A DNA stretch of 62,682 bases, filler included, from Kipferlia bialata (Eukaryota): NCBI GenBank assembly GCA_003568945.1. It is 4 parts of 4 records of this genome, joined end to end, with 100 filler letters (N's around TTAATTAATTAA, not from the genome) between each part and the next. Parts side by side here need not be neighbours in the genome. Positions count along the whole stretch, not along the records: positions 47,114 to 62,682 come from BDIP01000687.1; 3 more parts are not named here. The stretch is one strand, 5' to 3'. Positions 8,715 to 61,357 of this stretch are shown one piece after another. Below the pieces are notes generated by a model. That model saw nothing but the letters and a program-made list of their open reading frames with translations. It was not told the origin of the DNA and searched no databases. The first letter of the stretch is position 1; each line of letters starts with the position of its first letter. Position numbers and translations under genes: made by a program.

Positions 8715-11700
8715 ATGCCTATACCTATGTCGATGCAGGGTGGTGGCAGTGGCACAGGGGTGGGTGTGAAGGACAGGTTGGTGTGGCCATACATGGAGGA
8801 GCCTCCGGTGAGGCCCTGGGGTCAGTGTCCAATACACAATGCTATGTTCTCTCTATATGTATAATCAATCCATATAGTCTTCAAATTACACGGATACATG
8901 GAGGAGCCGCCGGTGAGGCCCTGGGGGTTAGACACTCTCTGTCCCTCATTCTCTGAGAACACACGTAACGTAAATACACAATCTATACCTCCGACCTCTG
9001 ATCGACCCTAATGGATACCGACCTAGAATACTACACATATATACATACAGCAACATACTTCATATATGTATATAAGTGTATAAATACAATCTAAACAGTG
9101 TATACCTCCGATCTCTGGTCCATACTTCATATATGTATATTATATACTAACAGTGTATACATACCTCTGATCTCTGGTCCGTCCCTATGGATGCCGACCT
9201 GAGGATGGAGAAGGCCAGCATCTCACTGCCCCTCTGCTCTTCCTCTTCCTCACGGAGTGCCCTAGGATTAGAGTAGGACAGAAAACATGACCCTCACTCC
9301 TGTGAATGTATAAACACCACGCATACTATATATACACATTGTATCATATATGAACTACCTGACTCCAAACACGTGTGGCAGGTCCCTCACTCTCACCCCA
9401 GTGGCTGTATACATGTATATATGTACAATCAATAATATATATATGTATGTTTATATACCTCACTCCAAACACGTGTGGCAGGTCTCTCACCCTAACCCCC
9501 GTGGCTGCCCTGAGGTATCCATCCAGAGACTGGGTGGTCGTCTCGGAGGATATCCTGGAAGTTAGCGAACTGTACATATATATAGTATTTGCTGTATAAT
9601 ACATATATGCAATCATACAACCTTTCCTATATACACACTATATATACCTGTGGAGTGCCACTGCATGCATCACCGACACCCCGGACAATATGTATGTTGG
9701 ACTACACAGTATACCATATATATAATTAGCATATACTATACAATATGTATATATATATTATACCTGTGCAGTGCCACTGCGTGCATCACTGACACCCCGG
9801 GTGTCCTCAGGAAGCCAGGCACAACAACCAGGAGGTTGAGAAGGCCTGGAGCTCAGAATGATACATTTACATATATATGAATACTGAGAGTCAGAAGGAA
9901 TTACTATATGGGAATTATACAGGTTTCCTTTATACATAAATACACATACATATATATGCACACTGTACCTATGTAGTCCGCCATATTTGATGCCGTGATG
10001 TAGTCACACAATACATATATATATGTATGAATATGGAGTATTATGTATGTATGTATACCAGGAGTAGTATACATCACATACATCCTATATGTACACAATA
10101 ATATACACTCAATCATACCTATATAATCTGCCATGTTTGATGCCGTGAGGTAATACACATAGTATATACAATTAGAAGTAATGTCAGTCTCTACTCATGA
10201 ATATGCATGTATACATATATAGATGTGTGTGTGTGTATCTACCTATATATATTCTGTACCTATGTAGTCTGCCATGTTTGATGCCGTGATGTAGTCATAC
10301 ACAAACACCCTGTCCCTCTTGGCAGGGGCACCCTTGGAGGCATGGGGTGAGTATGATAGTATCACTCTCTAGATTCACCGTCTATACTATGAATATAATA
10401 ATAAAAATATATATAAAAAATACCCTTTCCCTCTTGGCAGAGGTGCGCTTGGAGGCATAAGTTGAGGAGTATAATACATGACACTTCAGACATTACACAC
10501 AGGTACAGTTCATACTAGAAACTGTATACATATACATATATACGCCCATATACCTTAGTGACTGGCGTGTCTGCATAGCAGTGCATGTGGGGGCTGAGAC
10601 TGCGCTCTAGGGGGTGAGAGGGAGTAGAGAAACACATAACACAATATATATATGTGTGTGTGATATACACCTCAAGGGTGAGCGGGATAGACACACAAGG
10701 CACACCATAAGTAACATGTGAATGTGGAAGAGGGAGGTAATATCAGACAGCAGCTAACAGACGATACCAAGACAGCAGAGACACACGCACGCATAGTTAT
10801 ACACATAAAGATACAGTACCTAACAACAACTGCAAGCAGTCCCCTGCCAGCAGTGTGATCTCCACCCTTTCAGATGTATACACTACTATATATACATACA
10901 TATATATAATTACCTAGCAACAGCTGCAGACAGTCTCCAGCCAGCAGTGTGATCTCCACCCTTTCAGATGTCAAGATATATGTACTACTCTACCTATCTG
11001 TCTTCATGTATATACATGTGAGTATACCTAGCAAACACTGGAGACAATCCCCAGCCAGCAGTGTGATTTCCACCCTGCCAGAGGTCAAGATATACACACT
11101 ACTCTATCTATCTATATACATATATATGGTGCAGCTACCTAGTAAGAGCTGTAAGCAGTCCCCAGCGAGCAGTGTGATCTCCACCCTTTCAGATGTCATT
11201 GCAGTGCCCAGGCACTTAAGCCAGGACACAAAGATGGACTAGGATTAGAAGCAAGTACATACATATATACAGAGAGAGAGAGAGAGAGAGAGGAAGGTGT
11301 CATGGCAGTGCCCAGACACTTCAACCAGGACACAAAGATGGACTAGTGTTAGACGTATAGATGTATATGACAAGTTAGAGTCCCACCTCAGCACACTCGA
11401 GGTCTACTATGAGGGATCAGCATCAGTATCTAGGTATATATTATATATTACATACCTCACACTCGAGGTCTGATCTCAGTTTGTGGCTGTCAGTCTTGGA
11501 GGGATAGCCTGGGGGGTGAGACATCAAAGATATTCATGTGTCATAATATGCTGTCCCAAGTCCTCACTCTCTATCTTTCTCCACATATATAGTAATTATA
11601 TATAGAGACACAACAGACATACCTAGGATGGGCTGTGTGCCGTAGTGTGCTGTCCAGAGGGGACCAGTCTCTCTATCTCTCTCTCTCTATTAGCTAATAT

Positions 11701-15711: not shown

Positions 15712-15764
15712 TTTATAAAAATAATGGAACCCCCCCCCCCCCCCCCCCCATTCCCTCATCCCAG

Positions 15765-18465: not shown

Positions 18466-18497
18466 GTAATGCAACTTACATACGAATGCATACAGTG

Positions 18498-18541
<44 letters not shown>

Positions 18542-18633
18542 TCTTTTACCATTCAGGTAGGAATACTCTCTCTCTCCCCCCCCCCCCTCCCTCTGTGTCT
18601 CCATCTCTCGCTGTCTCTCTCTCTGACTGTAAG

Positions 18634-18861
18634 GCAGGAACACTGTCCTCGTCAGTGGGTGGAGGCAGGCCACACAGGACCCCTCACTCTTTATGTTGAC
18701 CCGAACCGACAGTGACCCTTGTGAGAGTACCCATGCCATTCCCAGGTACTAGCCCTACGTGGGTATATGTAGTAATATACAACTAACCCTCTTTGGCCTG
18801 TGGCTAGACAAGTCTCTCTCTCGTCTCTCTCTCTCGTCTCTCTCTCCCGTCTCTCTCTCTC

Positions 18862-18908
<47 letters not shown>

Positions 18909-19951: not shown

Positions 19952-19953
19952 GT

Positions 19954-19996
<43 letters not shown>

Positions 19997-20236
19997 CGAC
20001 CTGACACCTAATGTGACGTACTCGTGATACTTTATTGTGTAGTTGTCTCTCTTTCTCTCCTTCTAGTTTCTCTCTCTCTCTCTTGATACTGTATCGTGGA
20101 GTACTGTATGCGTAGCATATAAGGATGTGATGCTGTCACTCTCCCGCTCTTCCTCCCTCTCTCCCTAGTCGAACTAACACCCACTCTCGCTCTCTCACTC
20201 TCTCTCTACCTCGCTAGTCCCTCACTCTGTCAGGCA

Positions 20237-21048
20237 ATGGGCCAGTTCTATGTACGGCACAACATAGACAACTCCACCGACCAGGCAAGAGTTTTGATAT
20301 ATAGGCATCAGTGTCATGTGTCTGTATGTCAATGACTAACCCACCAGGTGATCCAGGCGCATGACAGGGTCACTGGCCAGGTCTGTATCCTAGACAAGGC
20401 CACCCACCTGGCACAGCCCCGGTCGGCCAAGTCATGCTTGGTCAACGAAGGTATAGCGATCCGGTCCCATCCCCCCCACCCCCACTCACCCAAGATGTGT
20501 GGCTTGTCTGCTACGAGGAGGAGCAGGTGGAGCACATGCACGACGAATACCCATTCGGGTTCCCAAGGAGTCGAGTCTTCAGTGCCAGGCACCTAGGGGT
20601 GGAGCTGAGCATCAGAGCCACCTTGCTCTACCCCCACCCGTCACTAGGTTGGGCAGTCTGTATATATACGTATCGGTGTGTGTGTGTAGATATCCATACT
20701 GACCCCAGACTGGGCAGAGGACGGAAACCCAGGGCAGAGTATATCTATATATATGTATATATAGCAGAGTGTGTATATATATAAGGCAGAGAATATAGTA
20801 TATATACACGTGTGTGTGTCTATACACTGACCCCAGACTGGGCAGAGTGTATATGTCTATTCTGATACTGGGTATATATCTATATATACATATATTCCTA
20901 TGTAACCTTATGCATATCTTCTCTGACCCCAGACTGGGCAGAGGATGGGGATCCAGGGGAGGAGAGACAGAGGCTGAGCGAGTTCGAGGAGGAGAGCATC
21001 TGGCTCTGGAACGAAAAGAGGATCCCAAAGAAGAGGATAAGGCACTAG
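20237..21048 (+). CDS. small hypothetical protein, 4 exons
   Basis: ATG 20237; exons MGQFY / VIQAHD... / DVWLVCY... / DWAEDG...KRIRH* join in frame through GT-AG introns; two acceptor echoes of the last exon near 20700 and 20830. Confidence 0.55.
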
Positions 21049-21298
21049 GAGAGTGGTGAAATAGGGAATATGGTGGTACTCTGTTCTGAGAGGGCGAATA
21101 GAGTGTACCGATCACTACACCCTTTAGTGAAGTTGTGGCCTTTTGTTTGTCACTTTGAACTCGATGATCCCTGACACAACTGTCCCCTCTCCTCCTCTTC
21201 TAACAGACAAATAGTCCATACTTACAATAAGAGCATGAGTCTCAGCACCGTTAACGCGTATGGTTGGGCCAGCAGCAGGTCCATGGATACCGCAGATG

Positions 21299-21329
<31 letters not shown>

Positions 21330-21495
21330 CCATATAGACAGGATGGAAGAGTATACCATAGGTTACCACACCATACACTTCTTGACTCTAGATTTACAGT
21401 TGAATCAATAATTGTTCATACTAGGCACTCGGCCTCTTTCAAGGGATATTTGTGCTATCATATTACTTAATGATATTCTTCTATTGGCAGCTACA

Positions 21496-24400: not shown

Positions 24401-26201
24401 TATCCATGGAGGATATGACTGCCACGTGATCAGACACGTATCTAGTGCCAAAGATGGTCACTGTCACAAGCTCTCCAGGAACGAAGAAGTCAACATATCC
24501 CATGTAACTGAAGACTACTTCCTGGTCATAGTGTGAGACATATCCCGTAATGTTGGCAGGGGTTCCCCCATCAGAGTGATACCCAAGGGAAACGGCCGAA
24601 GCGTCTTGGACATATGACCCCAGCCCTATAGACACTCTTAGAGAGGGACTTGATGTACCAGAAGAGCTAGGAGAGAACCTGACTTCGACCGGATCAATGT
24701 CTTCTCCCCAACGAGAGTCGATAAACGCAAGGAATGGTATACTCCCAGTGTCATCGGTCCCACTAGGCATGGCCAGTATCAGGAGAGTGTCAGACCAGAG
24801 GGAGACAGAGGACCCGAATCCGTCCAACAGCATTCCCGTCCCTGCCCAGATCTCCTCCCACTCCAAAGGTACACTGTTAGAGCGGCGCTGATACACTTTA
24901 ACAGAACCAAAGGGTGCATCAACGGTTGAGCCTGGACTCCCAACAACCAGTGTGGTGTGTCTTACAGAGAGTGAGGATCCAAAACACACAAACCCGTGTA
25001 TAGATGGACCGGTTTGCCAAGATCCATTATCGAACGAGAATGTGTGTACTGTACTTGTCTGCGCATCATTTTCTTGGGTCTCTGCCACAGCAAGAACATC
25101 ATCGTGAATTGCAACACGGCTACCGAAGGTTGCCCCTCCAGAGAGTCTGAGTGTCTCGTCCCAGGTGGACATTGTCTCTGTACTTGTTGCTTGGTACACA
25201 ACCACAAAACCCGTAGACCCAGTGGTACCACCAAGAACAATCTGGGAGCCGTCAGTAGCCACACTATAGGTATCGGAAGACCCAGGGTATGGCAAGGATA
25301 CAGCTAGCCAAGCACCTGAGCCAGACTCTAAGAGAAAGCCAGCCACTTGTGACCCATCCTCATCAGAGTAATGCGCGATGAGGAGACCACTCCGAAGATC
25401 CAATGCTTGCACCTCACATGTATCACCTGAGTCCCCAAGCGGCAGGACCTGGGCCACCTCCCACTGGTCTGATTCACTGTGGTGGGCAAATACTTGTACT
25501 GAAGCAGTGTCACACACTGCAATACAGCTGCCGTCGATAGCCACACAGCTTCCAAATCCCGCAGTCCCCGTCCCCAGTCTCTCAGTCTGAGTCCACTCTA
25601 GGTTGATACGTCTGTAGATGTAGGCAAATCCAAGAGTGGGGTCCCCCACGACAGCGCACTCCTCTCCAACAGCAACCATGCCTCTTGCATCATTGGATGG
25701 GTCGGTGACGGACACAGGATCTGTCGGAATGTCCAGTTCTGTGACTCTAGAGAACAGAGGATATGTCCTTACCGGGAACTCCCACTCATGCACTCCGTTG
25801 ATCTCGACTGTGAAGGTGAGGGCATCCCACACAACAACCTCTGCAGTGAAGAGCCCCGTCACAGAGTCCAATACCGCCGTGTATCGAGCACTGTCCACTA
25901 CCGCCAAAACCTCCAGAGTAGATAGGACAGCCTCTGGCAGGGTGGTCTCTCCATTGACTGAGATATCCACAGGGTAAGGTAGTCCTCGTGGGAACGAATA
26001 CTCACTCACACTCACAGTGACGCCCAAGTCATCGATACTCATGTCACTCGGTGCGAGCGGGACTTGCAGGGAGGATATCGCCCCATTGGGGGACGGCATG
26101 GGTGCACAATCCACACCTGTTTCACACTCTGGATGACAGGGTAGTATGCCAGGCAGAGGAGGCAGAGGCAGGCTACTAACATCGTGCACATCACTAAAGA
26201 C
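21496..26201 (-). CDS. large surface protein: FG-GAP-like beta-propeller ectodomain plus multi-pass transmembrane C-terminus; 5' end uncertain
   Basis: 2.8-kb exon with FGSCVAIDG, FGSRVAIHDD, FGSSLSV..LVVGSP and FGSSVSLW repeats; the four ORFs join in frame using plausible introns 23285-23400, 22151-22228 and 21871-21960. Confidence 0.7.
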
Positions 26202-27166
26202 CTATTAAGTTAGTGAGAGAGAGAATCAACAGAAGATGGAGAGAGAAAGAGAGCGATGGCTACTATGTGATGCAGGTTGGAGGGGGGGGGGAGCACAATA
26301 TACACGTGCTGGTAAGTGAGCTATCTGAAAGTCGGGTGTTTGGAAGCGGGGCCTGTATACGCAGTATCAAGTACCCGCTGGATAAGAGGAGAGAAGAAGT
26401 GTCATCATCATTGAGCACATGGAGACATAGTTCACAGACATACAGACAGACATATCCACATGAAAGGAAGATGCAATATATCACTCTATTGATGTTGATG
26501 TTGCCGATGTCACAATCGATATAACACGAAGAGGAAGGACAATGACTTGCAAACATGGTCAACTGTGTGTCAGGTACGGGATATCTACTTTAGTGTAATA
26601 TACCACCCGCTCGCTATATTCAACTTCAGAACCCTCCACTCACCTGTGTCAGTCCTATTCCGCCTCGCCTTGCTCCAATGATAGAAGTCTGTCTCAGTCG
26701 CTGAAGTTTTTGACTTTAAACCCTTTGTGAGATTTTCCGACTCACAGTCTTGAGGCCGCTTGAGAGCCTGCTTCAGACCAGAACGTTCCCACAAAGACTC
26801 CATTGTGGCGCTAGAGATGTCTGGGACGCACGTTACCCTAGACCGGGAGGACAGGGTGTTCATGGCCAGGGTCAATGAGTCGGCCAGGAGGTGGAAGGGT
26901 GGGTGGATGTGTACTATAGGAACTATGCCATACTATGCACACCAGCGGCTGTCATGCTCTGCAAGTTCAGTATCATGTCTCTTACTGTTATATATGGGTG
27001 ATACGTACCCCCTCCCGTCTCCCCCTCTGGAATCTGCATTATTGTCATTTGGTACCGGTACTGACCCCCAATGATATTGTTCATTCCACCACTAACTCGA
27101 TACACCACCGCCCCCTACCATAATCTCATTGACAAGTGGCAACTAGTAATTACCCAAGCTCTCCTT

Positions 27167-27214
<48 letters not shown>

Positions 27215-27299
27215 ACCCCTCCCCTCCCTCTCTTTTCTCTGTTCAGTTGCTTCCCTTCGGCTATTTATATACATGTATATATACAGTATATAGTGTCTC

Positions 27300-27765
27300 T
27301 GACCCCAGGGCACCTCTATCGTGGACTCATGCATATTCAATTAGGGCACTTATGAAATGGAGTATATGTATATGTATCCTTCTGAATGTAATAGTGTCTG
27401 ACCCCAGGGCATCTCCATCGTTCACCCAATAAGAACACATATGTATAAGAGTATGTACAATTACTCCTGAATATGTATATATATGGTGTATGATGCATCT
27501 GACCCCAGGGCACCTCCATCGTTGACACACATGCTTATTCATTTAGTACACATATGATATGGAGTATATGTGATATGGAGTATATGTATATGTACATCAG
27601 CCTATATGTCTGACCCCAGGGCACCTCCATCGTTGACTCCACCCCAGGCACCACAGCAGACACAAAGGTATGGGTATATGTGTATGGTCAGTTATATACA
27701 AAAATATATATATAGAGAGAGAGAGAGAGTATGAATGTACCCCCGGCACCACGGCAGACACTAAG
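27300..27765 (+). repeat. echo array around the HydF G2 exon: three acceptor echoes and one donor echo
   Basis: TCTGACCCCAG|GGCA.. ends at 27308, 27407, 27508 and (full exon) 27619; 3' echo 27739-27765 is followed by GTATGG. Confidence 0.95.
27609..27619 (+). promoter_or_regulatory. representative fused branch point / 3' splice site CT(A/C/G)ACCCC(C)AG
   Basis: Precedes most exons throughout the window on both strands; no separate polypyrimidine tract between branch motif and AG. Confidence 0.85.
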
Positions 27766-28995
27766 GTATGGGTATATATTTGTAATAAGAATAGAGAGAG
27801 AGAGAGATTTCCAATCACAGGTTGCCCTGATGGAGATGCACGGGATGGGCCCAGTCAAGCTGTTCGACACAGCAGGTATGTATATCTATATTGAATATGC
27901 ATTGATGGTTCTGGTATATACAATTGTATCTATAAATATGTATATATGATATATTGCACGGCCCTGTCAAGCTGTTCGACACAGCAGGTATGCCCATGCC
28001 TTAACGATGATATCCATACACATACATATCTATCTGTATGTGTATTCACTCATCTAACCTCATGCCTGACAAGGAGAATAGTGTCTATTATTATTATATA
28101 CTATATAATATACTGTATAATATACTATTATATTTACATTCATTATTATATGTACACTTCACGTACACTACAGTTCTATTATTTCCAAATACTGTTTCTC
28201 ACCCCATGCCTTGACGAGGAGGGTATCCTTGGGAACAAGAAGCATGCCAAGACATACCAGGTATTACAGTGTGTTTAGATATTCACACAGATTCATCGTG
28301 TTATACTGTATGTACATAATATAGTATATATATGATATATTATTAGCAAGAAGCATGCCAAGACATACCAGGTGCCATTTACAAAATTATATTTGACTAC
28401 ATGTGTATACAATAAATGTAACATTCATAGTGATATAGTTGGTACAGGTATATATATGTATTCCACTGGTCACTCACCCGTAGTCCCTTGCCCAGAGTGA
28501 CGTGGCCCTCCTATTATACTAATACCATTTACTAGTGTATATACCATTGAATAGTATATATCAAATTGTTTCTAATCCTCAGTCCCTTGCCCAGAGTGAC
28601 GTGGCCCTCCTGCTAATCTAACATTTATATATACATATGAATATATGTATTATATATGTATTACTATATATAGATACCTCATCTAATCCTCAGTCCCTTG
28701 CCCAGAGTGATGTGGCCCTGCTTCTAGTGGACCCTGCATCAACACCCCCAAGGCAGGGGGACAAGTGTGTGGAGGTATGTATATGTATATATATACAAAT
28801 ATGTATGTATACATATATATATATACCTTGTGGACCCAGCATCCACACCACCCAGACAGGGGGACAAGTGTGTGGAGGTATGTATATATATATGTATATA
28901 TATACAAATATGTATGTATACATATATATATACCTTGTGAACCCAGCATCCACACCCCCAAGGCAGGGGGACAAGTGTGTGGAGGTAAGAATATG

Positions 28996-29031
<36 letters not shown>

Positions 29032-31221
29032 TACTCTGCATCCACACCACCTGTCCTGACATAGTATATATGTGTGTCTCACCTCTCAGTTTGATGTCCT
29101 GTCCCGTGCCAAGAGTGACGGTTAATAATAGTTATATGCTGGGTTATACTCTCTCTCTATATATGTCTCTACACTTTTCAATGTCTCTCTAATCCGTCAG
29201 TTTGATGTCCTGTCCCGTGCCAAGAGTGACGGTGTCCCTGTGGTGGTGGTGTTCAACCACTTTGAGGGCACAACACGGTATGTTCACATATATATATATG
29301 GGCTTCTTAAGTATATATACTTTTTAACACAGGATTATTGTTTAATATATATATACATATATATATGGGTGTTCAACCACTTTGAGGGCACAACGCGGTG
29401 AGTACAGTGTTTCGTTTGTTGTCTACGTATTGTGAATCTATTTTTCATTGGTTAATGTATTTGACCCCCAGTGACTCCTCTGAGGAGTGCTATATCGTCC
29501 TTGCTCTCTGTCTCTCTCTCTCTCTCTTCCTCTCATATATATATGAATATCTCACCCCAGTGACTACTCTACCGAGCACATATCTCTCTCTCTCTCTCTG
29601 TCTCCCCCCATCATCATATATATATATATATATATTATTATATATATATATATACCTCTACCCCTCAGTGACTACTCTGCCGAGTGGTGCCGTGCCCTAG
29701 GTGATTATTATATATATATCAATTATTAATACATATATATATATATTGTCTTTAACATATATAAGTATATCTAACCTTAGTGACTACTCCGATGAGTGGT
29801 ACCATGCCCTGGGTGATTAATACTTATATTTATATATATATATACGATATGTATTAATATATATGTATAATGTCTCTTATATCAGTGACTACTCCGATGA
29901 GTGGTGCCATGCCCTTGGTGTGGGGACAGGGGCAGAGGGGGTCACAGTCATCAAGACAGGTGGGTATATGTCATATACACAGATTAAGAGAGATACCATA
30001 CTGGTGTCATCATTATAGGAATATGAATTGTATATATGAACGCATTACTCACTTCACGATCCCTCTATTATTCTCTCTAATATATATACACCCCTGACCC
30101 CAGACCTGTCCAAGGACGTGGTGGCCCATGAGGTGGTGACTGACATACTGCAGGTATTGTCGATAGTAATATATATAGATACATATATATACATATATCG
30201 ATAGATAGATAGGTATAAACCAGTGTATACTAGTATATGTATGATTATGTGGTGGCCCATGAGGTGGTGACAGACATTCTGCAGGTATTTATGGAGAGTA
30301 GTATATATATATATATATAGATAGATATCAATAGATTGATAGACTACGAGTGTATACTAGTATATATTTAGGTGTGTTGTAGCCCATGAGGTGGTGACTG
30401 ACATACTGCAGGTATCATAATATATATGCCTACTAGTGTATACGCGTTCACTAATATATTGTAATTGGTATGCAACTAGTACCACAATATATATACTTAT
30501 ATACATATACTAATATATATTCTGACCCCCAGGCCACCAAGAAGAAGACCAGGGCCCTGCCACCACTACTGCCAACAAGCATCACAGGTATAGGGAGTCT
30601 ATATTCTCATGTTGTATTGATGTGTATGTATATACACACACTGTCCCTACTGCCCACAAGTATCACAGGTATCGGGTGTATGTATGTACTACCGTTGAGT
30701 TTTATATTATTTGCATATATATGTACGTATTTAGACACTCTGCCACCCCTACTGCCAACAAGCATCACAGGTATAGGGATGTATATACATACCACGGTAT
30801 CGGTAAATATATACGATATGGTAAATATATATACACCCATACTTGATTACTGCGATAGGATACTGTGGTGGGGTCTCTGCCTCTAACAGGTAATCGTCTA
30901 GATAGGCTACTTTTGTGTACGCCTAACCTATATGCAGCAAGGGGTCTGTTGTGCTATAGAAGTATATTAACTAGTATATTCTAACTATTTTGTGTATGTG
31001 TATCTCTCTAACCTATAGGCAACAAGGGCTCTGTTGTGCTCAACATCCCCATGGACGATGAGACACCGGGGTCAAGACTGCTCAGACCTCAGGTATATAT
31101 ACATATATCACTAGCTACTCATGTGCATTTTGACCATATATGTGTATTGCATGTGCCCTCATTCCCAGGCCATGTGTCAGGAGCACCTGCTTGGGAACTT
31201 TGTCACAACGGTGGCATACAG
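27620..31221 (+). CDS. hydF: [FeFe]-hydrogenase H-cluster maturation GTPase HydF (partial: G1 motif and C-terminus missing)
   Basis: Spliced product GTSIVDSTPGTTADTKVALMEMHGMGPVKLFDTAGLDEEGILGNKKHAKTYQSLAQSDVALLLVD...VVLNIPMDDETPGSRLLRPQ matches the HydF G2/G3 motifs and the PxDxxxPxGRLxxPQ motif. Confidence 0.9.
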
Positions 31222-31262
31222 GTGTGGTACATGTACATGTAAATATATATATATGTATATGT

Positions 31263-31319
<57 letters not shown>

Positions 31320-31419
31320 NNNNNNNNNNNNNNNNNNNNNNNNNNNNNNNNNNNNNNNNNNNNTTAATTAATTAANNNNNNNNNNNNNNNNNNNNNNNNN
31401 NNNNNNNNNNNNNNNNNNN
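31320..31419. other. artificial scaffold-joining spacer
   Basis: N-run + TTAATTAATTAA + N-run, 100 nt. Confidence 0.97.
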
Positions 31420-46241: not shown

Positions 46242-47013
46242 ATGGTACCTTCTATTATCACTCACTGTGTTAGGAAAGATGAGGAAGGCAGAGTGTGTGG
46301 GAATCCTCTCGACCCTCCACACACTAGCAGGAGGAAGCACTGTGCTGATTGCTTGTGGGCTATCAAGCAGATCAAGAACCGAGAAACATATCTGCGGAAC
46401 AAGCAGAAGAAGACAGCACCAGAGGCCCCTGGACCTTGCCCCCACTGCGCAGTGCATCTTGGCACAATTGCAGAGAAGGAGGCATTGATAGCCGAGCTTC
46501 AGCTTCAACTACAGGGTGTCAAGGTTTCAGTCCCAATCACTGTGCCCACCCCTCCTCTCGCTGTCCTCCCTGTCCCCTCTGTCCCCGTTGTCAACGAAAA
46601 TGTCCCTCCCCCTGCCAAGAGAGTCCAGAATCCCCAGGCCCAGGTTCATCAAGAAGGTCAAGCCCAAGGTCTCTGCCCTTGTTGATTATCTTGATGACAG
46701 GCAGGAGATGTTCATTCCCAGTGCCCCCCCTCCTGGCAGATACAAGCTCATACACTGTGACTCCAGTACTTGGGGACAAGAGGAGACTACCTCCTACCAT
46801 ATCAACCCTCTCACCCTCCAGCATCTCTCCCCTGATAGCACTAGTCTGTATGTGAATATCTTGGTTGGTTGCATTGAGCTCAATCTCACTGATACAGTCT
46901 ACCGTCTCAAGACCAGAAGAAGAATCTTTTTATTCCTCTCTCGAGCTGAACCCTTTTTCAGAATCTTTTTATTCCTCTCTCGAGCTGAACCCTTTTTCAT
47001 ATTCGCTCAATGG
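46242..47013 (+). pseudogene. intronless Cys-rich ORF with an apparent 1-nt frameshift, possibly derived from a mobile element
   Basis: ORF 46242-46685 (C..C, CADC, CPHC, then coiled coil and Pro-rich segment) continues in another frame as RIPRPRFIKK... after ...AAG AGA GTC C AGA near 46620. Confidence 0.35.
46921..46998 (+). repeat. perfect 39-bp tandem duplication
   Basis: AGAATCTTTTTATTCCTCTCTCGAGCTGAACCCTTTTTC x2 at the scaffold end. Confidence 0.9.
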
Positions 47014-47113
47014 NNNNNNNNNNNNNNNNNNNNNNNNNNNNNNNNNNNNNNNNNNNNTTAATTAATTAANNNNNNNNNNNNNNNNNNNNNNNNNNNNNNN
47101 NNNNNNNNNNNNN
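47014..47113. other. artificial scaffold-joining spacer
   Basis: N-run + TTAATTAATTAA + N-run, 100 nt. Confidence 0.97.
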
Positions 47114-50872: not shown

Positions 50873-53583
50873 TAAAGATATATGATTATACCTAGCCATC
50901 TTTGCCGCCTTCTCCTCTGCCAGCACAGCCAGTCTCCTGTTGACCAGGTATGCCCTCAGGGCAGCTGGGGTGTAGCCCTGGGGCTTGGACAGCTCGTCAG
51001 AGGAGACATACAGCAGGGCACGGGCTCTGAGGGTAAGAGATATATATGAGTGCGATATTTATGTAGACATGTGTATGAGTATCTATATGAGAGGAGACAT
51101 AGAGCAGGGCACGGGCTCTGAGGGTAAGATTTGTACATGATACATATAAAGAAGACACACATAATTATATATAAGACTTCTGTTCATACCTGTCCAGGTT
51201 GAGCGTGGATGAGTCAAGGAGCAGACGCCTGTTGATCTCGTCAGTCACGCTGGGGTGAGATCGATACACATTACAGAGCAAATAGAGAGAAACAAAAGAG
51301 AGAGAAAGAGAGAGAGAGACAGTACCGTACCGAGTATCTGTGAGGCTGTCGATCATCCTAGTGTACTCTGCCACTATCTTGAGGTAGTTGCAGCACAGGG
51401 TATGCACAACCTGCTTGGCAATGGACAGGGCCTCGACCTAGGGTAAGAGGGCAATGAAGTAGTATATTAAATCATATAAACTAACGTGTATAGAGAGAGA
51501 GAGAGAGGCTTGGCAATGGCGATGGCAATGGCGGAGGCCTCGACTTAGAGGAGGTGCTACGTAGAAAGAAGTGAAGAAAGAGACATGTACCTTAGCGTTG
51601 AAGGACCTTCTGAAGTCACAGTATGCCCTGAGCAGGATGAAGTACTCGGCAAGCCTGGGGGTGAGACTGGATATCTATATGAGAACAGTAGAAGGAGAAA
51701 CACAAAATGCCTTTGTATATACAGTGGAAACTAACAGAGAAATGTAAAGTATGGTGTATACCTAGCGTCACTGCTGCTGAGTCTGGGTGGCAGTGCATAG
51801 TCGGGGTCTGTCCTCAGGAGTCTGGACCCGTTGTGCCTCTTACCGTACTCAATACGGCGCCTGGGATCAGGTGGTATGTTGTGCATGTCTATAGAAAGTG
51901 TATGCATATACCTGTCATCTGTTGAGATGGTCTTGGGGTTGGGCCTGCGTCCCTTCAGCTCCTGCAGGGCCTTGAGGGAGGCAGCCCTCTTGGCATTACG
52001 GGCAGCTACCTAGGGTGAGTGAATGGAAACATCTTCAAGTAGAGAGGGTATATGAACCCTTCGTACCTTTGCCAGCCTGTTGGTGCGTGCCCTGCCTCCT
52101 GGCACAGATGCCACCTGGGCAGCTGCGGCCTCGGACTGGGTGGTATCTACGCGGTGAGAGGATAAAAAGGTTGAGCATATACTAAACTATATCCTCAGAG
52201 TATATGCATACCTGGCCTAGCGCTAGTGACACTCCTGGCGATGGCAGAAACTGTCCCGCCCTGTGCCATCTCTCTCTCCCTCTCCATGTCATCCACAGCA
52301 GAGGAGACAGAGGGGGCGGCACTGGCGGTGCGGCTGCCGGGGACGCTGTTGGCGGCCTCCTTCTCTCTCTCTCCCTCTGCGTCGCCATACTCACTGCCAA
52401 AGGGGGACTCGGTGGGGTCCATCCTAGAGGGTTAGGGTCACTGACACATTAATATATATATAAATATATATTGATATATAACGATGGGGTCCATCCTGAC
52501 ATGTAAGAATGGCATACATGATCAAACCCCAACTTATATATGTTGACAATACTATTGCTGGAAATGTCACACCTAGCCAGTAGCAGGTTGATCTGCTCAT
52601 CCACAACGACAGGTACCTCGCTGACCCGATATGTCCTGACCTAGGGGTTAGTAAATAGAAATACTAATAGAAACCAGTATCTCTCTCTCCCATTGTATAT
52701 GTCCATACCTCCAGACCACTGTCACTGAACCCACGGACAGTGAGACTCTGGCCCTCCACACCTCCACCTGGGAGTCAGTGAAAAATGAACATTTGCTAAT
52801 GCATACACACACATGAAGCAACAACTATTGGTGTGACTTCATACCTAGGAACAGGGCCCTGGCCTTGATAAGTTCCTTCTCGGCACGCTCTCTGGTGGTT
52901 AGAGAGCACTAGAGGGAAGTATCGGTATCAGTACAAGGTGACTAAATAGTACACACCTGGCGTATGCGAACTGGGCATCGACCCCCTCTATCCCTGTGAT
53001 CTGCTCCTCATACAGGGCAGGGCCTAGGCCAGAGTCTACAGTGAAGTCAGTGTTCCTGCGCAGCTGGGCATTCTCAGGGTCCTGGGGTGAGAGAGGCACA
53101 TACACTCACATCAACACACAAAGAGACAAAATTGTATCACTATGGATATAATGTCCTATCCCACCTGCAGAATCTGCCTCATTAGTGTCTTGTACTCATT
53201 CCTCAGACGCCTGGCCTTGTTCAGGATGTCCTGGGGTGAGGACGGGTAGTACATACACATACATACACATATTCACTGTTCCCATATATACTACATATAC
53301 ACTTTGTAACTGCGTCTGCCTGGCAATTACCAGGTCACATACTCTCTCCCTCTCTCTCTCTCTCCTCACTCTTATGTATAGTGTTGTAGTGTGTATATAT
53401 ATACACACTGTACCTGCGTCTGCCTGGCCAGTGCCAGGTCACTCTCCTTCTCTCTCTCTCTCTCTCTACACCCTTATGTATATGAATAGTAGTGTATATA
53501 TATAACCGTTGTACCTGTGTCTGCCTGGCCAGTGCCAGGTCACTCTCCTTCTCTCTCTCTCTCTCTCTTCATTCTTATGTATA

Positions 53584-53622
<39 letters not shown>

Positions 53623-56600
53623 ATGTACCTGTGTCTGCCTGGCCAGTGCCAGGTCACTCTCCTTCTCCAGCCTAGACCTCAGGGTGGACTCGAGGGTCTT
53701 GGAAGACAGGGCGGCAGTGTCCTAGGGGTAAGGCAAGGGTATATGACATAGAGGGAGAGAGAGACAGAAGGTCTTGGAGGACAGGGCGGCTGTGTCCTGA
53801 AGTATAAGATAACAGGGAGAGAGAGAGAGAGAGAGAGAGAGACTTAAAGGACAGGGCGGCAGTGCCCTAGGGGTTAGACAAGTATACAAACATGAACACG
53901 GAAATATATTCACGATAAGCTTCATTACACACCTGTGCGTCAGGCTGCATACTGGGTATGGCATATACATATATCTGGATATATCCACATATATATACAT
54001 ATATATATATATATACATGCTCTCAATACCTGTGCGTCTGGCTGCATACTGGGCCTGACAGGCAGACTGCCGCTCTTGCCACCAGTGCCCATGCTAGGGG
54101 GGGCACGGCCACTGATCAGGTATCTAGAGGGTAAGACATAGAAAAGAATACTAAAAGTCACACATATATACATTCGATAGGGGGGAAATGCTCACTGATC
54201 AGGAAACTGGAAGGCCACAATAGGTGAGTACAGATTACCCCACACAAAGGATATTTCATATGCACAGACACGTACACGTCCAGCTGTCCGGCAGAGTCAA
54301 ACACTGCAAACAGGCTGTTCTGGCAACAAGGTACGATAAGGCAGCCTGGAGGTAAGATCCAAATAACACATAGTATGTATAAATATGGTGAGAGAGTGTG
54401 TTAGCTGTGTACCTGGCTTCTGGATCGACAAAAACAGTACATACAGTCGACTCGGCATACAGTATATCGGCATATACAGATAATATATGATAATATATGT
54501 CATCTATATGTGCTGTACCTGGCTTCTGGAACAGCTGTGTGCAGCATCTCCAGTATGTGTTCTGGACAGTCAGGAGCCAGTCGGCACCGTGCTGGGGGGT
54601 AAGACAAGGAAGGAAAATAATAGGACATGGCAAGTCAATATTGAAGAGTACACTATGTACACTACCTGTGATGGTTGTGTCCTGAGGGGCTGGCAGACAA
54701 GCTCACCTGGTATCAGACATGATAGAGAAAGAGAGAAAGGAGAGAGAGATAAATGCAGTGCATTGAACTCACCGGTTGATGTAGCACTGAGCACTGTGTC
54801 GGCTATGAGTGATGAGGCAGTGATGCCATAGACATTGACCACAGAGAACTCGGGGGAGTGGCCAATGGCCTGAAGGGGTTAGGGGTGGGGGGGTGGGGGG
54901 GGGGGGTTAGAGTATACTGATACAACAGAGGATGGGTTCACTAACTAGTATATACATGTCATACACACCTGAGTGGGCCTCGCAATACCGAGCTGGCTCA
55001 TCAGGGACTTGAGGCTGGGGTTAGGGGGAGAGGGAGATATGATAATACTTTGGATACTATAGTAGTAGAATGGCCTGGAGACACATATAACCATCATATA
55101 CCTGGCCTTGTTGCCGTGCTCTGGGTGGAGTGCCCTGACAAAGTCACTGTACAGCGTGTCAACCTGGGGTGAGGCCTATACGAAGTATTTTAATACATAC
55201 TATGTATGTTCACATACACACTGTATATATACGGCACACCATACCTCCAATAACGACAGGTCTGGGTGCCCCACCAGACATGACTGGACAGGGGCAGTCT
55301 CCCTGAGGCCGGGGGTCTTGTCCTCTCTCTCCCCCTCTGCCTCTGTCTCACCCTCTCCCTCTCCAGGTGGGTGGGTCAGGAACTGGCTGGTCTCAAACAG
55401 ATACACATGGGCACTGCGCCACTTGGACCTGGGGGGTGAGACATCTCAACAAACTAATGCATATGACTGGATGTGCACATAGTACCATACCTAGCAGCTG
55501 CGAGAGTACCACTGAATGGCGACAGACACAGCACCCTCCCCTGGCTGTCTCTCTCCTCGTCCTCATCGGGTATCAGCATCTCAGTGCCCTCGTCATCGCC
55601 AACCATCACAGTGCGGACCTGGAGTGAGAGTGATAAAGTAATATCTATATCTATATATATATATAAATACACATATATATAAATAGAGAGAGAGATGATA
55701 ATGATAGTGCCCTCGTCATCGCCAACCATCACAGTGCGGACCTGGGGTTAGGTACATACATATATTTGAGAGAGAAGTTAGTATTTATAGAGAAAGAGAT
55801 TAGCAGAGATATAGAGACGTATTGTGATACATACCTTCTTAGCCTTCTTCCCCCCTCTCCTCTGCCCAGCTGACAGGGACTGGCCCACATAGGGCTGGGC
55901 ACCCTCGGACATCTCAACCTGCGGTGATGAAGACGAAGAGAGAGAGAGACATACACAAATAGAGGTAGAGTATACCTTGACTGATGCGCACAGCTTGTCC
56001 TGGGACCCAGGCAGTATGTACAGAGACATGAGTTCGTATCTCACTGGCAGCACTGTGTCTGCATAGGGGTTGACGGCATTGCGCTCATCAGCTAGGGCAC
56101 CCTCCTGCGAGTAAGTACCAACAAAACATACAAGTAATAAGATACATATATATATAGAGTATGTAGAGTACGTATATATACCTGGGCTGCCCCGCTGAAG
56201 TCCTCCCCGCCCTCGAGTGCCTCCAGGGCAGACAGGGCGTCCAGGGCACCCTGCTCGGCATCCTTGCCTGTACTGTGAGTATAGTGAAGAGTAGTACACA
56301 AATACGTCCATTAATAGAAGACATGAGAGTACTATTAGTCTTCCATATGCTACCATACCTCCTCTGGTGGTGTTTGCGGCGTCAAGGCTCTCGAGTCTCT
56401 CCTTCTCTAGCCTGGGGGTGAGGCTAGTGTACACACATATATACCAAATATGAATAGACAGCAAAAGAAGAATTCGTACTATGAAAGATAGTATTGTATA
56501 CATACATACCTGACCAGTGACTCCTCGAGGGGTCTGGGCAGCAGAGTACACGTCATATGAAATAACGTATTATATGGTATATAGGACATACATATATATA

Positions 56601-59401
56601 CCAGTATGTCATTACCTGGCCAGTGACTCCTCGAGGGGTCTGGGCAGCAGAGTACATGTTATACATATAATAATAGTGAATATGTAGAGTATACAGTGCA
56701 TATACCAGTATGTCTTTACCTGACCAGTGACTCCTCGAGGGGTCTGGGCAGCAGAGGCTTGGGGAGCTTGATAGTGTGTCTGATGACAGAGGCATCGTCC
56801 ACACTGCCTGAATGTTAATAATTAGTGTATCTATGTATATATACTACAACGCATACGTATTTCCGCACCGGTGACATCCAGAGAGTCTGCCACAGCCACG
56901 CCCTTCTCCTTGGTATGTAACACAANNNNNNNNNNNNNNNNNNNNNNNNNNNNNNNNNNNNNNNNNNNNNNNNNNNNNNNNNNNNNNNNNNNNNNNNNNN
57001 NNNNNNNNNNNNNNNNNNNNNNNNNGGTAGGATACCTGTGACATCCAGAGAGTCTGCCACAGCCACCCCCTTCTCCTTGGCCAGCTTGGCCTGGGCACGG
57101 CGGTACTTCCTGGTGTTAGACACTGTATACATACTACTATATATGGCTATATAGAGACAAATGGAGAGAGTGGCTGGGCACGGCGGCACTTCCTAAAGGA
57201 TGAGAGAAGATATACTACATACATGTATCACTAGTTAGTGTAAACTACACTGGGCACTGAAGTCCTAACTCAACGCACAGGGACAATGCGGGACGACGGG
57301 TATCACAGGTGGGTGTTTTATATATGTATGTCTCTATCATACCTGGTTGTGCTGACGTCTGGCAGAGGCATGGTCACAACAGCATTGGTGGGGTCGGCAC
57401 CTGGAGGTGGGTACGGTAAAGTTCTGAGTACCCATTATAACATATATAGATACATATACACTACAGTACCTGCCAGATGCACCACCATGACGGGGTGTGT
57501 ATATGAGTACAATAACAATAATGATACATAAGTATATATATAGCGTATATAGAGAATGTGCATATCATGTACACTACAGTACCTGCCAAGTGCACCACCA
57601 TGACTGGGTGTGTGTCTGGGCTGGATGGCAGGAGAAGGGCAGTCTTGGCAGGCCTCAGCTTGGGCTCCTCTGTCTCACCCTGTGCCATGGGGCCATCGAG
57701 GGGAGAGGGAGAGGTGGAGACAGGCTAAGGGGTGAGTGATAGTGTGGGTGAGGGGGTATAGAGAGAGAATCTATGTTTAGGGGCCATCGAGGGGGGAGGG
57801 AGAGGTGGAGACAGGCTGAGGAGTGAGTGATAGTGTGGGTGAGGGGGTGCTGGAGAAATACTCATATATATACCCCATACCTCTGTCTTCCCTGCCCCCA
57901 GCCTGTCCTTCTTGATGAATACACTACATATACATATATATACATGCATATAAATATATATATACATATATAACAATATACCTCTGTCTTCCCTGCCCCC
58001 AGTCTATCCATCTTGATGAATCCAAGGGGGTCTAGCTGGGCACCGTCATCATCGAACAGGAACACCTCCTGCCCAGCAGACACGGTGAGGACAATGGCCT
58101 TCTTGCCAGCTCCTAGGGGTGAGAGAGGTAACACGACAGATAGAGAGAGAGAGAGAGAGATCTAGCAATGACACGTTCACTCCTCGTACCGTAACCCTTG
58201 CTCTTGCCCGTTGATATCTGGGCGTGTCTCAGGATGGACACAATGGGGTGGTCGTGGGGCCTGGGGGTGAGCAAGGAAACAATACATATCAACGCAATAC
58301 CGGATGTAACTATAAATATACTATATATACAATGTCTATACCTGGATGATGCAATGAGCCTGAGCTTGCAGGACGTGCCCTTGAGGAACACCCTCTCGTG
58401 CATGGACCGGTCATCCCTGCCACGCTTCACAAGCACCATCTCCCTAAGGGGTGAGAGAGGGACATCAACAATATATACACATGTATATATGCGATAGATA
58501 TATACTAATGGCTGCCACGCTTCACAAGCACCATCTCCCTAAGGGGTAAGCGAGGATGGGAGGGTGTGGATATAGTTAAGGTATTCAATACATATGAATG
58601 ACACTGTTATTGAAACGATGTACCTGAGTGATCCATCGACATATCCCACAAACAGCCTGAGCTGCTGGGTGCCAGTGGGGGCCTGGGGGTGAGAAATTGA
58701 ATGATGTGTTGTATATATACTGATTGAGATAGGAATGATGTTTGGTGTCAGTGGGGGCTTGAAGCTGATACATAGGATCAATATGGATACCAAACACTAT
58801 ACGTACCCAGAGCAGTGATGTGACGCTGATGGGCACAGACATCTTGGGAGGGGACTGGTGGCCGGCAATGACAGTGCCTAGGGGGTGAGGATGTTTATAA
58901 AAATTACTAATGATAGTTAGAAAGACTGGGGGTCCCACACGTACCCTTTGTGAGGTCGTGAATGAAGACTGTTCCCTCTGTGGATGCTGAGGCCACGACA
59001 GGCAGCGTGGGGTGGGCAGCAACAAGGCCTGAGGGTAAGAGAGGAATCAATAAATATAGGGGGGGGCTGCCGATAAATGCATAGTGTGTATGTGCATATA
59101 TCCTGACCTGCAGGCAGTTCGAATGGGAGGGGCACTGACTGCGTTGTGTCCATCTCTCCAGCACCCAGCCTGGCCAGGGAGGAGCCAACCTGGAGATAAG
59201 CAAGATACAAAGAACCTTGAGATAAGCAGCAGAGAGAGAGAGATAGAGAGACTGCACCCACCTCCATGATCCCCCCGTTACCCTCGTGTGCCCTCCTCAT
59301 GAGAGTGAGGTCATAGGACTTGGAGTCGAGGACATACACACCACCTCTGGCATCCTGTAGCACATAGTCAGACCGGAAGGCACCCTCCTCCAGGGGCTGG
59401 T
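47166..59401 (-). CDS. CFAP44: cilia- and flagella-associated protein 44 (WDR52)-like; both ends missing
   Basis: WD40 region YVLQDARGGVYVLD, LFVGYVDGSLR, RPHDHPI, VFLFDDDGAQLDPLGFI; coiled-coil tail with AMFKKTVK, an acidic patch, ELAVYESEKKEDLNAL and VLYTLSDLERL, in the order recalled for CFAP44. Confidence 0.8.
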
Positions 59402-59784
59402 CTGGGGTGAGTGTGAGAGGAGGTAGATAAGTTAGCGTAGTAAGAGAGAGATGAAGAGAGAGACGAAGGCGCCCTCCTCCAGGGGCTGGTCTGAAGTGAG
59501 CCTAAGAGAAGGTAGAGAAGGGTGGTATGGGATGGGGGGGGGGGGGGGCCGGGGGAAAATAGGGGGGGGGGGCCTTCTCAGAGTCGTGTGTCCAACTCTT
59601 ACATGCATGCATGTATGCATGTACATGCATGCTGCTTCCCTCTCTTCTCTTCTTCCCCCCCCCTTCTCTCGGATATACCAACTCCCAGCTACCTTCTCAG
59701 GGTACAGTGAAACTGATAGCGATGCAGGCTATATCTCTACATTTGTATATGTATACAATGTATATACAATACCTCTACCCCCAG

Positions 59785-61020
59785 CTACCTCGTCAAGGTA
59801 TTGATGCTGGGGGATGACTCAGTAGGCAAGTCCAGTCTGCTGACAAGATACGTGGAGGGGAGGTGCGGCATGGTGTTACACAATTTGTGTAGTGTCACCA
59901 TCACTTACTAAGCACACCTTCTCTCTCTCTTCTCTCTTCCCCCCCCCCCCCTATATTGAGTATGTTTCTCCTTTTCCATTTTTCCGTCTACCCCCAGCTT
60001 CCGTCTAGACACTCTCTCCACCATAGGAGTGGACTTCAAGTCCAAGGACGTGGGGGTGGGGAACATGAGGGTTAGGCTGCAGGTAACATACTAAATGATA
60101 ATAGTAGTACATACACTGCAGCATTGAGAAGGGTCAGGCTTCAGGTACCCACAGATCATCTCTCTTACAAGTGGAGTCTCACTTCGTTCTCCCACTCACA
60201 CTCTAGATATGGGACACATCTGGGCAGCAGAGGTACATGAGCATAACAAAGGTATAGACTCTATACCGTATAGAGTCTAGTCTATTTTCATACACTCCCA
60301 TGAAACCTCTCACCCCAAACCTACTTCCGCCTTGTCTCGTGTGTCCTGCTGGTATATGACACATGCAGTAGACAGAGCTTCGACAACCTTGCATACTGGA
60401 GAGAGGTGCTCTCTGCCAATGTCTGTGACCCATCACTCATTCTGCACACGGTACTGGTTGGCACAAAGACAGACAGAGGGGGGGACAGAGAGGTATGGTA
60501 ATGGTGATAAGATAAGGAGAAGGGGCCACTGGCCCCATTTCTATACTTCTGCCACGATAGGAAAGTATCAGTATGCACAGCTAGTTGAACGTAGCTCCCT
60601 CTCATTGATCCTAGGTTTCCACTGAGACTGGTGCTGCATATGCAAAGGAAAATAGCATGATGTATGTTGAGACATCGGCACTGGAGGTAGGGTAGACGTA
60701 TACAACTGGATAGGCAGCGATAACCATGTTCACCATTCACCCTCCAGGGCACCAATGTCTCCTCTGCCTTCCACCCCTTGGCCCATGCAGTGTGTGCAGA
60801 CATAGAGAGTGGGAGAGTGGGGGATGGGGTGTTCACACCCTACCTGGAACACTCAGGTTAGACAGGCCACTTGACACCCGATGACTGGTAATACTGTGTT
60901 GTGGTACTGTGCACAATGCATTACATAAGTTCACAACCCCGCCCCTCACCCCCAGACTCTGAGGGTGGGGCCGTCCACGTAGAAGCGGCGAGGGAAGAGC
61001 GGGTGTCACGATGTTTCTAA
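59785..61020 (+). CDS. Rab-family small GTPase (first exon missing)
   Basis: Exons give YLVKVLMLGDDSVGKSSLLTRY / STIGVDFKSK / IWDTSGQQRYMSITK / TYFR..LLVYD..LVGTKTD / YVETSALE / ...SRCF*; G1-G5 motifs and Rab IGVDF motif present. Confidence 0.9.
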
Positions 61021-61357
61021 TATCGGTACTATTGTCTCAACAGAGACAGGTCAGAGCTGATTACAGGGAGGTTCTTGAGATGAAATGGTGTATTGAATAG
61101 GGCTACATCAAAGAATACCATGTCGACTCCAAACTCAAACACCCATATGACTCTCTGACGACTTCACTAGTATTTCATGTGCTGGACACTCTGCCTAAGA
61201 CAGAGTAACCCATGTATGTAGTGTCCTTTCTGACCTAAAACCTGACAGTGTAGAGGAATATCACAGAGTGTAATTGAACACGTGAAAAAAGGGTTACCTT
61301 CATGTCACACTGTGACTCACACATCTTTCTGTCTCTACTATCAATAGACCTTGACGC

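What the first reader, a model, noticed from the sequence alone, without database searches (positions are those of the whole stretch)
60252..60318. Non-canonical GT-AA intron in the Rab gene
Seen: ...ATA ACA AAG|GTATAG ... CTCACCCCAA|ACC TAC TTC CGC gives YMSITKTYFR, matching the Rab switch II consensus spacing (FRSITxSYYR). The three upstream AGs (60272-60280) give a frameshift or hit TGA. The geometry is the standard CTCACCCCAG with G changed to A. It is a second gene, with a different base, supporting relaxed acceptors.
Basis: partly seen in the sequence, partly recalled or inferred. Interest (0 to 1): 0.7.

Follow-up and report, generated by a model that had tools for sequence, protein, structure and literature searches.

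The report
Kipferlia introns spliced without final G
In the free-living Giardia relative Kipferlia bialata, an intron in a Rab gene ends in AA and one in a hydrogenase-maturation-like gene ends in AT instead of the near-universal AG, yet RNA assemblies show both cut out exactly there, which suggests this organism likely picks intron ends by distance from the branch site rather than by the AG itself.

Summary
Confirmed and extended. The window is four joined contigs of Kipferlia bialata. A spliced RNA contig joins 60251 to 60319, removing a 67-base GT..AA intron; this is read from piece coordinates, as the joint row was cut from view. A DNA contig (depth 484) shows no other letter at 60318. The product is a gap-free Rab, best of 199 alternatives. 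The 'other gene' is HydF-like: its 332-base intron is joined GT..AT in RNA. Both ends lie six bases after a strong branch A, and all 16 RNA-joined introns end at +6 to +8. A third AT candidate (10342, minus strand) is untested. Likely mechanism: a branch-to-acceptor ruler with a lax check of the last base; a published survey found no U2AF35, SF1, Prp22 or U12 proteins in this species. Open: the organism is diploid and contigs hide alleles; about 1% in one selected window does not give a genome-wide rate. Not found in print (six searches). The scan noted relaxed acceptors before in other genomes (Rozella, Neolecta, a marine protist), in notes that mostly await RNA data.

The parts
60252..60318 (+). 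Rab intron, 67 nt, GT..AA, phase 0
   Evidence: RNA contig pieces and bin depths; DNA contig with 0 other letters; best of 199 open in-frame GT/GC-donor products against a 14-protein Rab profile
60309..60318 (+). branch motif CTCAC (predicted branch A 60312) fused to the acceptor CCCCAA; last base is branch A +6
   Evidence: score 9.6 against a median of 9.2 for 215 strong AG sites; first AG after the branch is at +56; branch position is predicted, not mapped
60255..60279 (+). predicted 11-bp perfect hairpin just inside the donor of the Rab intron; the acceptor region is unpaired
   Evidence: fold of 60240-60345, z = -3.3; role unknown
59785..59862 (+). Rab exon with the P-loop (second exon; the first exon is not in the window)
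   Evidence: RNA contig; Pfam Ras E 6e-5
59998..60082 (+). Rab exon (switch I)
   Evidence: RNA joints GT..AG on both sides
60207..60251 (+). Rab exon upstream of the GT-AA intron (G3 motif, switch II)
60319..60492 (+). Rab exon downstream of the GT-AA intron
   Evidence: RNA piece 60319-60490, 0 other letters; Pfam Ras E 9.7e-7
60615..61118 (+). last three Rab exons (60615-60686, 60748-60856, 60956-61118 with stop and 3' UTR), introns GT..AG
   Evidence: piece coordinates of RNA contig, frame check
27876..28207 (+). HydF-like GTPase intron, 332 nt, GT..AT, acceptor CTCACCCCAT at branch A +6 (different contig from the Rab)
   Evidence: RNA joint row 27875->28208 'GT..AT', contig depth 3985; DNA contig 0 other letters; all six AGs in 28190-28261 frameshift; upstream exon matches TIGR03918 HydF at E 0.004 and 3qq5 weakly
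28054..28080 (+). diverged intronic copy of the HydF acceptor and exon start, also with AT at the acceptor position
   Evidence: seen by eye
10342..10553 (-). third candidate intron, GT..AT, acceptor CTCACCCCAT at branch A +6; an in-frame AG lies 9 nt further; a diverged copy near 10457 also ends AT
   Evidence: ranked 2nd of 10 non-AG calls by an RNA-blind gene finder; frame open either way; not tested with RNA

Best explanation
The Rab intron at 60252-60318 starts GT, ends AA and is cut out exactly there in the RNA assembly, and it is likely an ordinary major-class (U2-type) intron whose end is set by distance from the branch site rather than by the letters AG. In K. bialata the branch motif (YTNAC) is fused to the acceptor, six to eight bases away (shown for 16 of 16 RNA-joined introns, with the branch position predicted). 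Inferred steps: U2 pairs with the strong CTCAC motif without needing AG recognition; after branching, the short C-rich linker places the base at +6 in the active site; the A at -2 is kept but the last base can be A or T; and the usual rejection of such ends is weak. The apparent lack of U2AF35, SF1 and Prp22 would explain this. The same rule would account for the GT..AT intron of the HydF-like gene, so such ends are probably recurrent, on the order of 1% of introns.
For: RNA contig joins at 60251/60319 and 27875/28208 GT..AT (printed row); DNA contigs at depth 484 and 402 show no other letter at either site. No direct repeat at the Rab junction and one shared letter at HydF, so template switching is unlikely. 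Both sites have the same geometry (CTCACCCCA + A or T, branch +6) and median-or-better branch scores (9.6 and 9.3 against median 9.2). The first AG after the branch lies at +56 and +17 and is not used in the contigs; in the 14 AG introns the first AG is the acceptor, at +6 to +8. Among 182 predicted AG introns with a strong acceptor, 172 lie at +6 to +8. An RNA-blind gene finder put the two confirmed sites 1st and 3rd of 10 non-AG calls. Of 56 duplicated exon starts behind AG acceptors, 51 keep AG and 0 have AT, whereas the copies of both AT sites (found by eye) have AT, so AT likely predates the duplication. Supplement of PMC6679479: K. bialata scored 0 for U2AF35, SF1, Prp22, Cactin and all eight U11/U12 proteins. 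In yeast, Prp22 and Prp18 mutants use CAU ends and branch-proximal sites (PMC10711555, passages). Fixed branch-acceptor spacing is described in Giardia and Trichomonas (PMC6679479, passages).
Against: One sample, contigs only, no raw reads: neither splicing efficiency nor a second allele can be seen, and the genome paper calls the species diploid. The Rab has no intronic copy of its acceptor, so the age of its AA is unknown, and the protein is divergent (TKTD for NKxD, DDSV in the P-loop), so selection on it may be weak. The two RNA-tested stretches were chosen for these sites, so 2 of 16 is not a rate; the window estimate is 2-3 of 210-257 predicted introns, with P(>=2) = 0.016-0.023 at a 0.09% background but 0.13-0.18 at 0.3%, before allowing for the roughly 800 windows of this genome. 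Prp18 and Slu7 are present, and the 'absent' Prp22 and U2AF35 come from a search of a fragmented predicted proteome, not re-tested here. Branch positions come from a model fitted on this window.
Confidence: 0.6

Rival explanations
1. The Rab site is heterozygous: the assembly shows a dead AA allele while the mRNA comes from a normal AG allele that the assemblers collapsed.
For: K. bialata is reported diploid from two k-mer peaks. The tool states that contigs drop rare variants, and X1 may be the window's own source. Splice-site mutations in diploids are usually carried as heterozygotes (general knowledge). The Rab acceptor has no old copy to date it.
Against: No other letter is listed at any place in either laid stretch, in DNA or RNA contigs (table 3), so visible heterozygosity is low here. 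It would have to hold separately for HydF, where a diverged intronic copy also has AT while 0 of 56 copies of AG acceptors have AT.
Confidence: 0.17
2. The splicing is real but these are isolated tolerated exceptions at the ordinary eukaryotic background rate, and the window was flagged because it happens to hold two or three.
For: Rare U2-type introns with non-AG ends exist everywhere: 99 in five model species, including a conserved GT-AT in DGCR2 (PMC1557818); minor non-canonical pairs are 0.09% in plants (PMC7072748). With about 800 windows per genome, a 2% tail gives over a dozen such windows by chance.
Against: The sites share one geometry (CTCACCCCA + A/T at +6), sit on three separate contigs, and one is in a conserved GTPase motif with no in-frame AG within reach. 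With three sites the tail falls to 0.001-0.002 at 0.09%, but the third is untested.
Confidence: 0.17
3. The terminal A is edited to inosine in the pre-mRNA, so the spliceosome reads AG.
For: Documented for human GT-AA introns (NRK, ADARB1, HOOK3, COG8; PMC4176328).
Against: ADAR editing of mRNA is described as a metazoan innovation, absent in the four unicellular relatives tested (PMC9989829; fornicates not examined). The acceptor is unpaired in the local fold. Editing cannot explain the GT..AT intron.
Confidence: 0.02
4. These are minor-class (U12-type) introns, which tolerate other terminal pairs.
For: About 5% of U12 introns have non-canonical ends, GT-AT among them, and their acceptor is set by distance from the branch.
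Against: Donors are GTATAGA and GTATGTA, not RTATCCTT, and score as ordinary donors of this genome (71st and 50th percentile); the branch motif is the genome's common CTCAC. No U11/U12 protein was found in K. bialata. GT-AA is not in the U12 table of PMC1557818.
Confidence: 0.02
5. Artefact: base-call error in the assembly or a reverse-transcriptase jump.
For: The window assembly is imperfect nearby: the first exons of both genes are missing from it.
Against: A separately assembled DNA contig agrees at depth 484; the junction has no direct repeat; it uses a consensus donor and branch and restores the Rab register without gaps.
Confidence: 0.02

Closest known systems
Fused branch point-3' splice site introns of Giardia, Spironucleus and Trichomonas (PMC6679479, passages)
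   Same: Same clade, U2-type signals, fixed short distance from branch A to intron end, reduced spliceosome.
   Different: Those consensus ends are AG and the genomes hold few introns; here the genome has about 125,000 introns and the last base varies. One Giardia GT-AT candidate is listed, spliced in 1.3% of reads (PMC10711314 table), whereas here the non-AG join is the only assembled form.
Rare U2-type introns with a non-AG 3' end in model organisms, e.g. GT-AT in DGCR2 (PMC1557818, passages)
   Same: Normal GT donor, one changed base at the intron end, spliced there.
   Different: [quoted passage not shown]
U12-type introns with non-canonical termini (RT-RN class)
   Same: Works alike: branch site dominates, acceptor set by distance, last base relaxed (GT-AT allowed).
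   Different: No U12 donor or branch consensus, no U11/U12 proteins reported in this species; GT-AA is not a listed U12 pair.
Yeast prp18-null and prp22-G810A spliceosomes (PMC10711555, passages)
   Same: Use of CAU ends and of sites 7-10 nt from the branch when second-step fidelity is lowered.
   Different: Mutant, low-level mis-splicing; here the apparent normal route in a wild organism that retains Prp18 and Slu7.
Editing-dependent human GT-AA introns (PMC4176328, passages)
   Same: Same terminal pair in DNA.
   Different: Depend on ADAR and a paired acceptor; neither is expected here.

Membership tests
U2-type (major) spliceosomal intron | GT donor with the genome's consensus | tested here: met
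   AAG|GTATAG, 71st percentile of 257 predicted donors
U2-type (major) spliceosomal intron | branch motif near the 3' end | tested here: met
   CTCAC at 60309-60313, score 9.6 against median 9.2; predicted, not mapped by lariat
U2-type (major) spliceosomal intron | terminal AG (canonical GT-AG subtype) | tested here: not met
   ends AA in window and in DNA contig; so it is a non-canonical variant, not a GT-AG intron
U2-type (major) spliceosomal intron | precise removal from the mRNA | tested here: met
   RNA contig piece coordinates and bin depths
U2-type (major) spliceosomal intron | removal by the U2 spliceosome through a lariat | not testable with these tools
   needs lariat reads or snRNA knock-down; no snRNA candidates were found in K. 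bialata by PMC6679479
U12-type (minor) intron | RTATCCTT donor and TCCTTAAC-like branch | tested here: not met
   donors GTATAGA, GTATGTA; branch CTCAC
U12-type (minor) intron | U11/U12 machinery in the organism | not testable with these tools
   no genome held; published survey scores 0 for all eight U11/U12 proteins
A-to-I editing-dependent GT-AA intron | acceptor A in double-stranded RNA and read as G in pre-mRNA | tested here: inconclusive
   acceptor unpaired in the local fold; no pre-mRNA reads available
Rab-type small GTPase (Pfam Ras PF00071) | G1-G5 motifs in register | tested here: met
   202 bits, residues 2-175 against a profile of 14 relatives, no gap at the junction; exons hit PF00071; G4 reads TKTD; subfamily not determined
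HydF maturation GTPase (TIGR03918) | whole-protein score above the curated cut-off | tested here: inconclusive
   only single short exons could be scanned; 1 of 5 hit TIGR03918 at E 0.004; motif resemblance of the other exons is from recall

The most novel reading that the evidence does not exclude
K. bialata, with about 125,000 introns, has a major spliceosome that has largely dropped the check on the last intron base: around one intron in a hundred (a thousand or more) ends in AA, AT or AC at a fixed distance from the branch point, because U2AF35 and Prp22-type proofreading are lost. It would be a natural, intron-rich case of U12-like ruler splicing by a U2 machine, and AG-only public gene models would be wrong at all these sites.
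Probability: 0.4. Interest if true: 0.78.

Novelty: new variant of a known kind. Interest (0 to 1): 0.62.

Why it matters
The last G of the intron is among the most conserved letters in eukaryotic genes, and changing it usually blocks exon joining. A wild organism that joins exons at AA and AT ends, apparently as the main route and in a conserved enzyme gene, offers a natural test of which factors enforce that G. The candidates (U2AF35, SF1, Prp22) are already scored as missing in this species, and public reads should allow a genome-wide count. It also matters for annotation: the genome paper counts only GU-AG introns, and neither protein search returned a protein bearing the Rab exon after this intron, which hints that such genes are mis-modelled and that published 'absences' in this proteome need care.

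Tried and rejected
One search's empty list of alternative splice forms was invalid (frame off by one); redone, which found 15 open AG-ending forms, the best at 132 bits against 187. No genome is held for the window, so no genome-wide count and no search for snRNAs or splicing factors. No run is on record as RNA; X2 is a guess by the tool, but its joins at GT-AG introns show spliced RNA. Rows dropped before the count of 16 introns: five DNA-run joints and one RNA-run joint (58996-59230, GA..AG, 21-letter side in a GA repeat), taken as repeat matches; the tool itself dropped two RNA joints in repeats in each. Homolog searches with the Rab exon and another exon gave no hit; the representative search gave 53 Rab-like proteins, none above 52% identity; these blanks are weak evidence about annotation. 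A first self-trained gene finder over-merged genes and was replaced by a region-bound one that recovered 9 of 11 test introns; its other 7 non-AG calls had margins of 3.4 or less and were not accepted (one is the copy beside the third candidate). A motif scan alone gives 102 non-AG sites with acceptor geometry, mostly inside exons, so motif matches without frame or RNA are no evidence. Literature: searches found no report of non-AG introns in Kipferlia; the library lacks most subscription papers. An ADAR search naming Giardia returned nothing.

Full report
Source and layout. A long reading frame of the window (23241-26099, minus) is 100% identical to a protein named KIPB_003535 of Kipferlia bialata, whose longest contig is 15,608 bases. 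That equals the piece between two N-linkers (15712-31319). The four pieces are 15,611, 15,608, 15,594 and 15,569 bases, so the window is four contigs sorted by length and joined, not one chromosome stretch. No whole genome is held.

The observation. Bases 60252-60318 begin GTATAG and end CTCACCCCAA. The exons on either side hit Pfam Ras. The three AGs near the donor give a stop or a frameshift, and keeping the intron gives a stop. The best AG-ending form (60375) loses 19 residues and scores 132. My first test of alternatives was in the wrong frame and is void.

RNA and DNA evidence. Two coded runs of one sample hold the region. The DNA contig across 59922-61877 (depth 484) has no other letter. 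One RNA contig (842 letters, depth 9.58) carries the Rab in seven pieces. A 47-letter piece from 60205 is followed at once by 60319-60490, and the bin depths fit exactly 47 and 122 covered letters. The join is thus 60251 to 60319, with no letter shared by both sides. The joint row was among four not printed, so this rests on piece coordinates. No contig with the intron retained was laid, but contigs show presence, not absence.

The second gene. Reading the rest of the window and scanning for branch motifs without an AG pointed to a HydF-like GTPase on another contig. There the RNA contig (depth 3985) is joined 27875 to 28208, printed as GT..AT, between two GT..AG joins; the DNA contig (depth 402) agrees with the window. 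All six AGs nearby shift the frame. The family name rests on a weak TIGR03918 hit for 1 of 5 short exons, a weak PDB match and recalled motifs. A third site (minus strand, 10342) has the same ten letters as the HydF acceptor but an in-frame AG nine bases on, and could not be tested.

Geometry. In all 16 RNA-joined introns (12 printed rows, 4 from piece coordinates) the end lies 6-8 bases after the predicted branch A. In the 14 AG introns it is the first AG; in the two exceptions the first AG is at +56 and +17 and is passed over for the AA or AT at +6. Of 182 predicted AG introns with a strong acceptor, 172 lie at +6 to +8. The odd sites have ordinary donors and median-or-better branch scores. 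The branch model was fitted on this window. A gene finder blind to RNA, which recovered 9 of 11 test introns, ranked the HydF, third and Rab sites first, second and third of 10 non-AG calls among 257 introns.

Age of the AT ends. Introns here often hold diverged copies of the next exon's start with its acceptor. Of 56 such pairs behind an AG acceptor, 51 keep AG and none has AT. The copies of both AT acceptors, found by eye because they miss the two-mismatch rule, have AT. This argues that AT is old and fixed. The Rab site has no copy.

Mechanism. Shown: splicing at AA and AT, and the fixed spacing. Inferred: that spacing, not AG, sets the end. From papers: Giardia, Spironucleus and Trichomonas introns have the branch fused to the acceptor, and moving it abolished splicing in Trichomonas (PMC6679479, passages). 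The same paper's supplement (file 10, read whole) scores K. bialata 0 for U2AF35, SF1, Prp22, Cactin and all eight U11/U12 proteins, and 1 for U2AF65, Prp8, Prp16, Prp17, Prp18 and Slu7. That U2AF35 reads the AG is recalled knowledge. In yeast, loss of Prp18 or a Prp22 mutant allows CAU ends and branch-proximal sites (PMC10711555, passages). The absences come from a fragmented predicted proteome and were not re-tested.

Against this reading. The species is reported diploid (PMC5874029, passages) and contigs hide alleles, so a G allele at 60318 is possible. The Rab is divergent (TKTD at G4). The rate is uncertain: 2-3 of 210-257 is about 1%, against 0.09% for minor non-canonical pairs in plants (PMC7072748, passages) and 99 cases in over half a million sites (PMC1557818, passages; abstract start). 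The chance of two is 0.016-0.023 at 0.09% and 0.13-0.18 at 0.3%, and this window is one of about 800 in the genome. Editing of A to I explains some human GT-AA introns (PMC4176328, passages) but ADAR editing is described as metazoan (PMC9989829, passages), the acceptor is unpaired and AT is not explained. U12 signals are absent.

Novelty. The genome paper counts 124,912 GU-AG introns and does not use the word 'non-canonical' (its three text supplements have no 'intron'). Searches found no report of non-AG introns in this species. Passages of PMC10711314, PMC11347168, PMC6823432, PMC11316075 and PMC6260720 gave none either; the first lists one rarely spliced GT-AT candidate in Giardia. Subscription papers and preprint supplements were not visible. 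Earlier notes of this scan describe relaxed acceptors in other genomes, none in this one; I did not check them.

Verdict. A real, RNA-supported GT-AA intron with a GT-AT companion of the same build, in an intron-rich relative of Giardia whose spliceosome appears to lack the AG reader and a proofreader. A new variant of a known kind; interest 0.62, rising to about 0.78 if a genome-wide count confirms a rate near 1%.

Noticed in passing
window 15612-15711, 31320-31419, 47014-47113: N-linkers with a 12-base stop spacer join four unrelated contigs of 15.6 kb sorted by length; genes across them are not neighbours.
   Followed up: yes
whole window, e.g. 27300-30800, 9000-11300, 53300-53650: Many introns hold tandem, diverged copies of the next exon's start or the previous exon's end, complete with splice signals (51 pairs with an intact AG). 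In the HydF-like gene the RNA contig skips the copies, using the first donor and the last acceptor. How the spliceosome ignores them, and whether they seed new introns, is unexplained.
   Followed up: partly
window 60255-60279: Predicted perfect 11-bp hairpin three bases inside the donor of the GT-AA intron (z = -3.3).
   Followed up: partly
window about 59530-59580 and 27170-27210: The RNA contigs of the Rab and HydF-like genes begin with 116 and 81 letters not found in the window; long G or C runs upstream are probably collapsed gaps that hide the first exons.
   Followed up: partly
window 59688-59740: A decayed copy of the Rab acceptor and exon start lies upstream of the used one (59785).
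   Followed up: no
window 59785-61020: The Rab is divergent: DDSV in the P-loop, TKTD for NKxD, a single cysteine near the C-terminus; no protein bearing its exon was returned by two searches.
   Followed up: partly
window 15323-15340, minus strand: A strong branch motif is followed by AC at +8 and the first AG only at +13; the upstream exon is lost in the linker, so the acceptor could not be decided.
   Followed up: no
window 39431 and 59863: Weak-looking donors GTGCGG; the one at 59863 is used in the RNA contig.
   Followed up: partly
window 46250-46920: Short reading frames with cysteine/histidine-rich stretches and a 29-base tandem repeat at the contig end, possibly a mobile-element remnant (impression from reading).
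   Followed up: no
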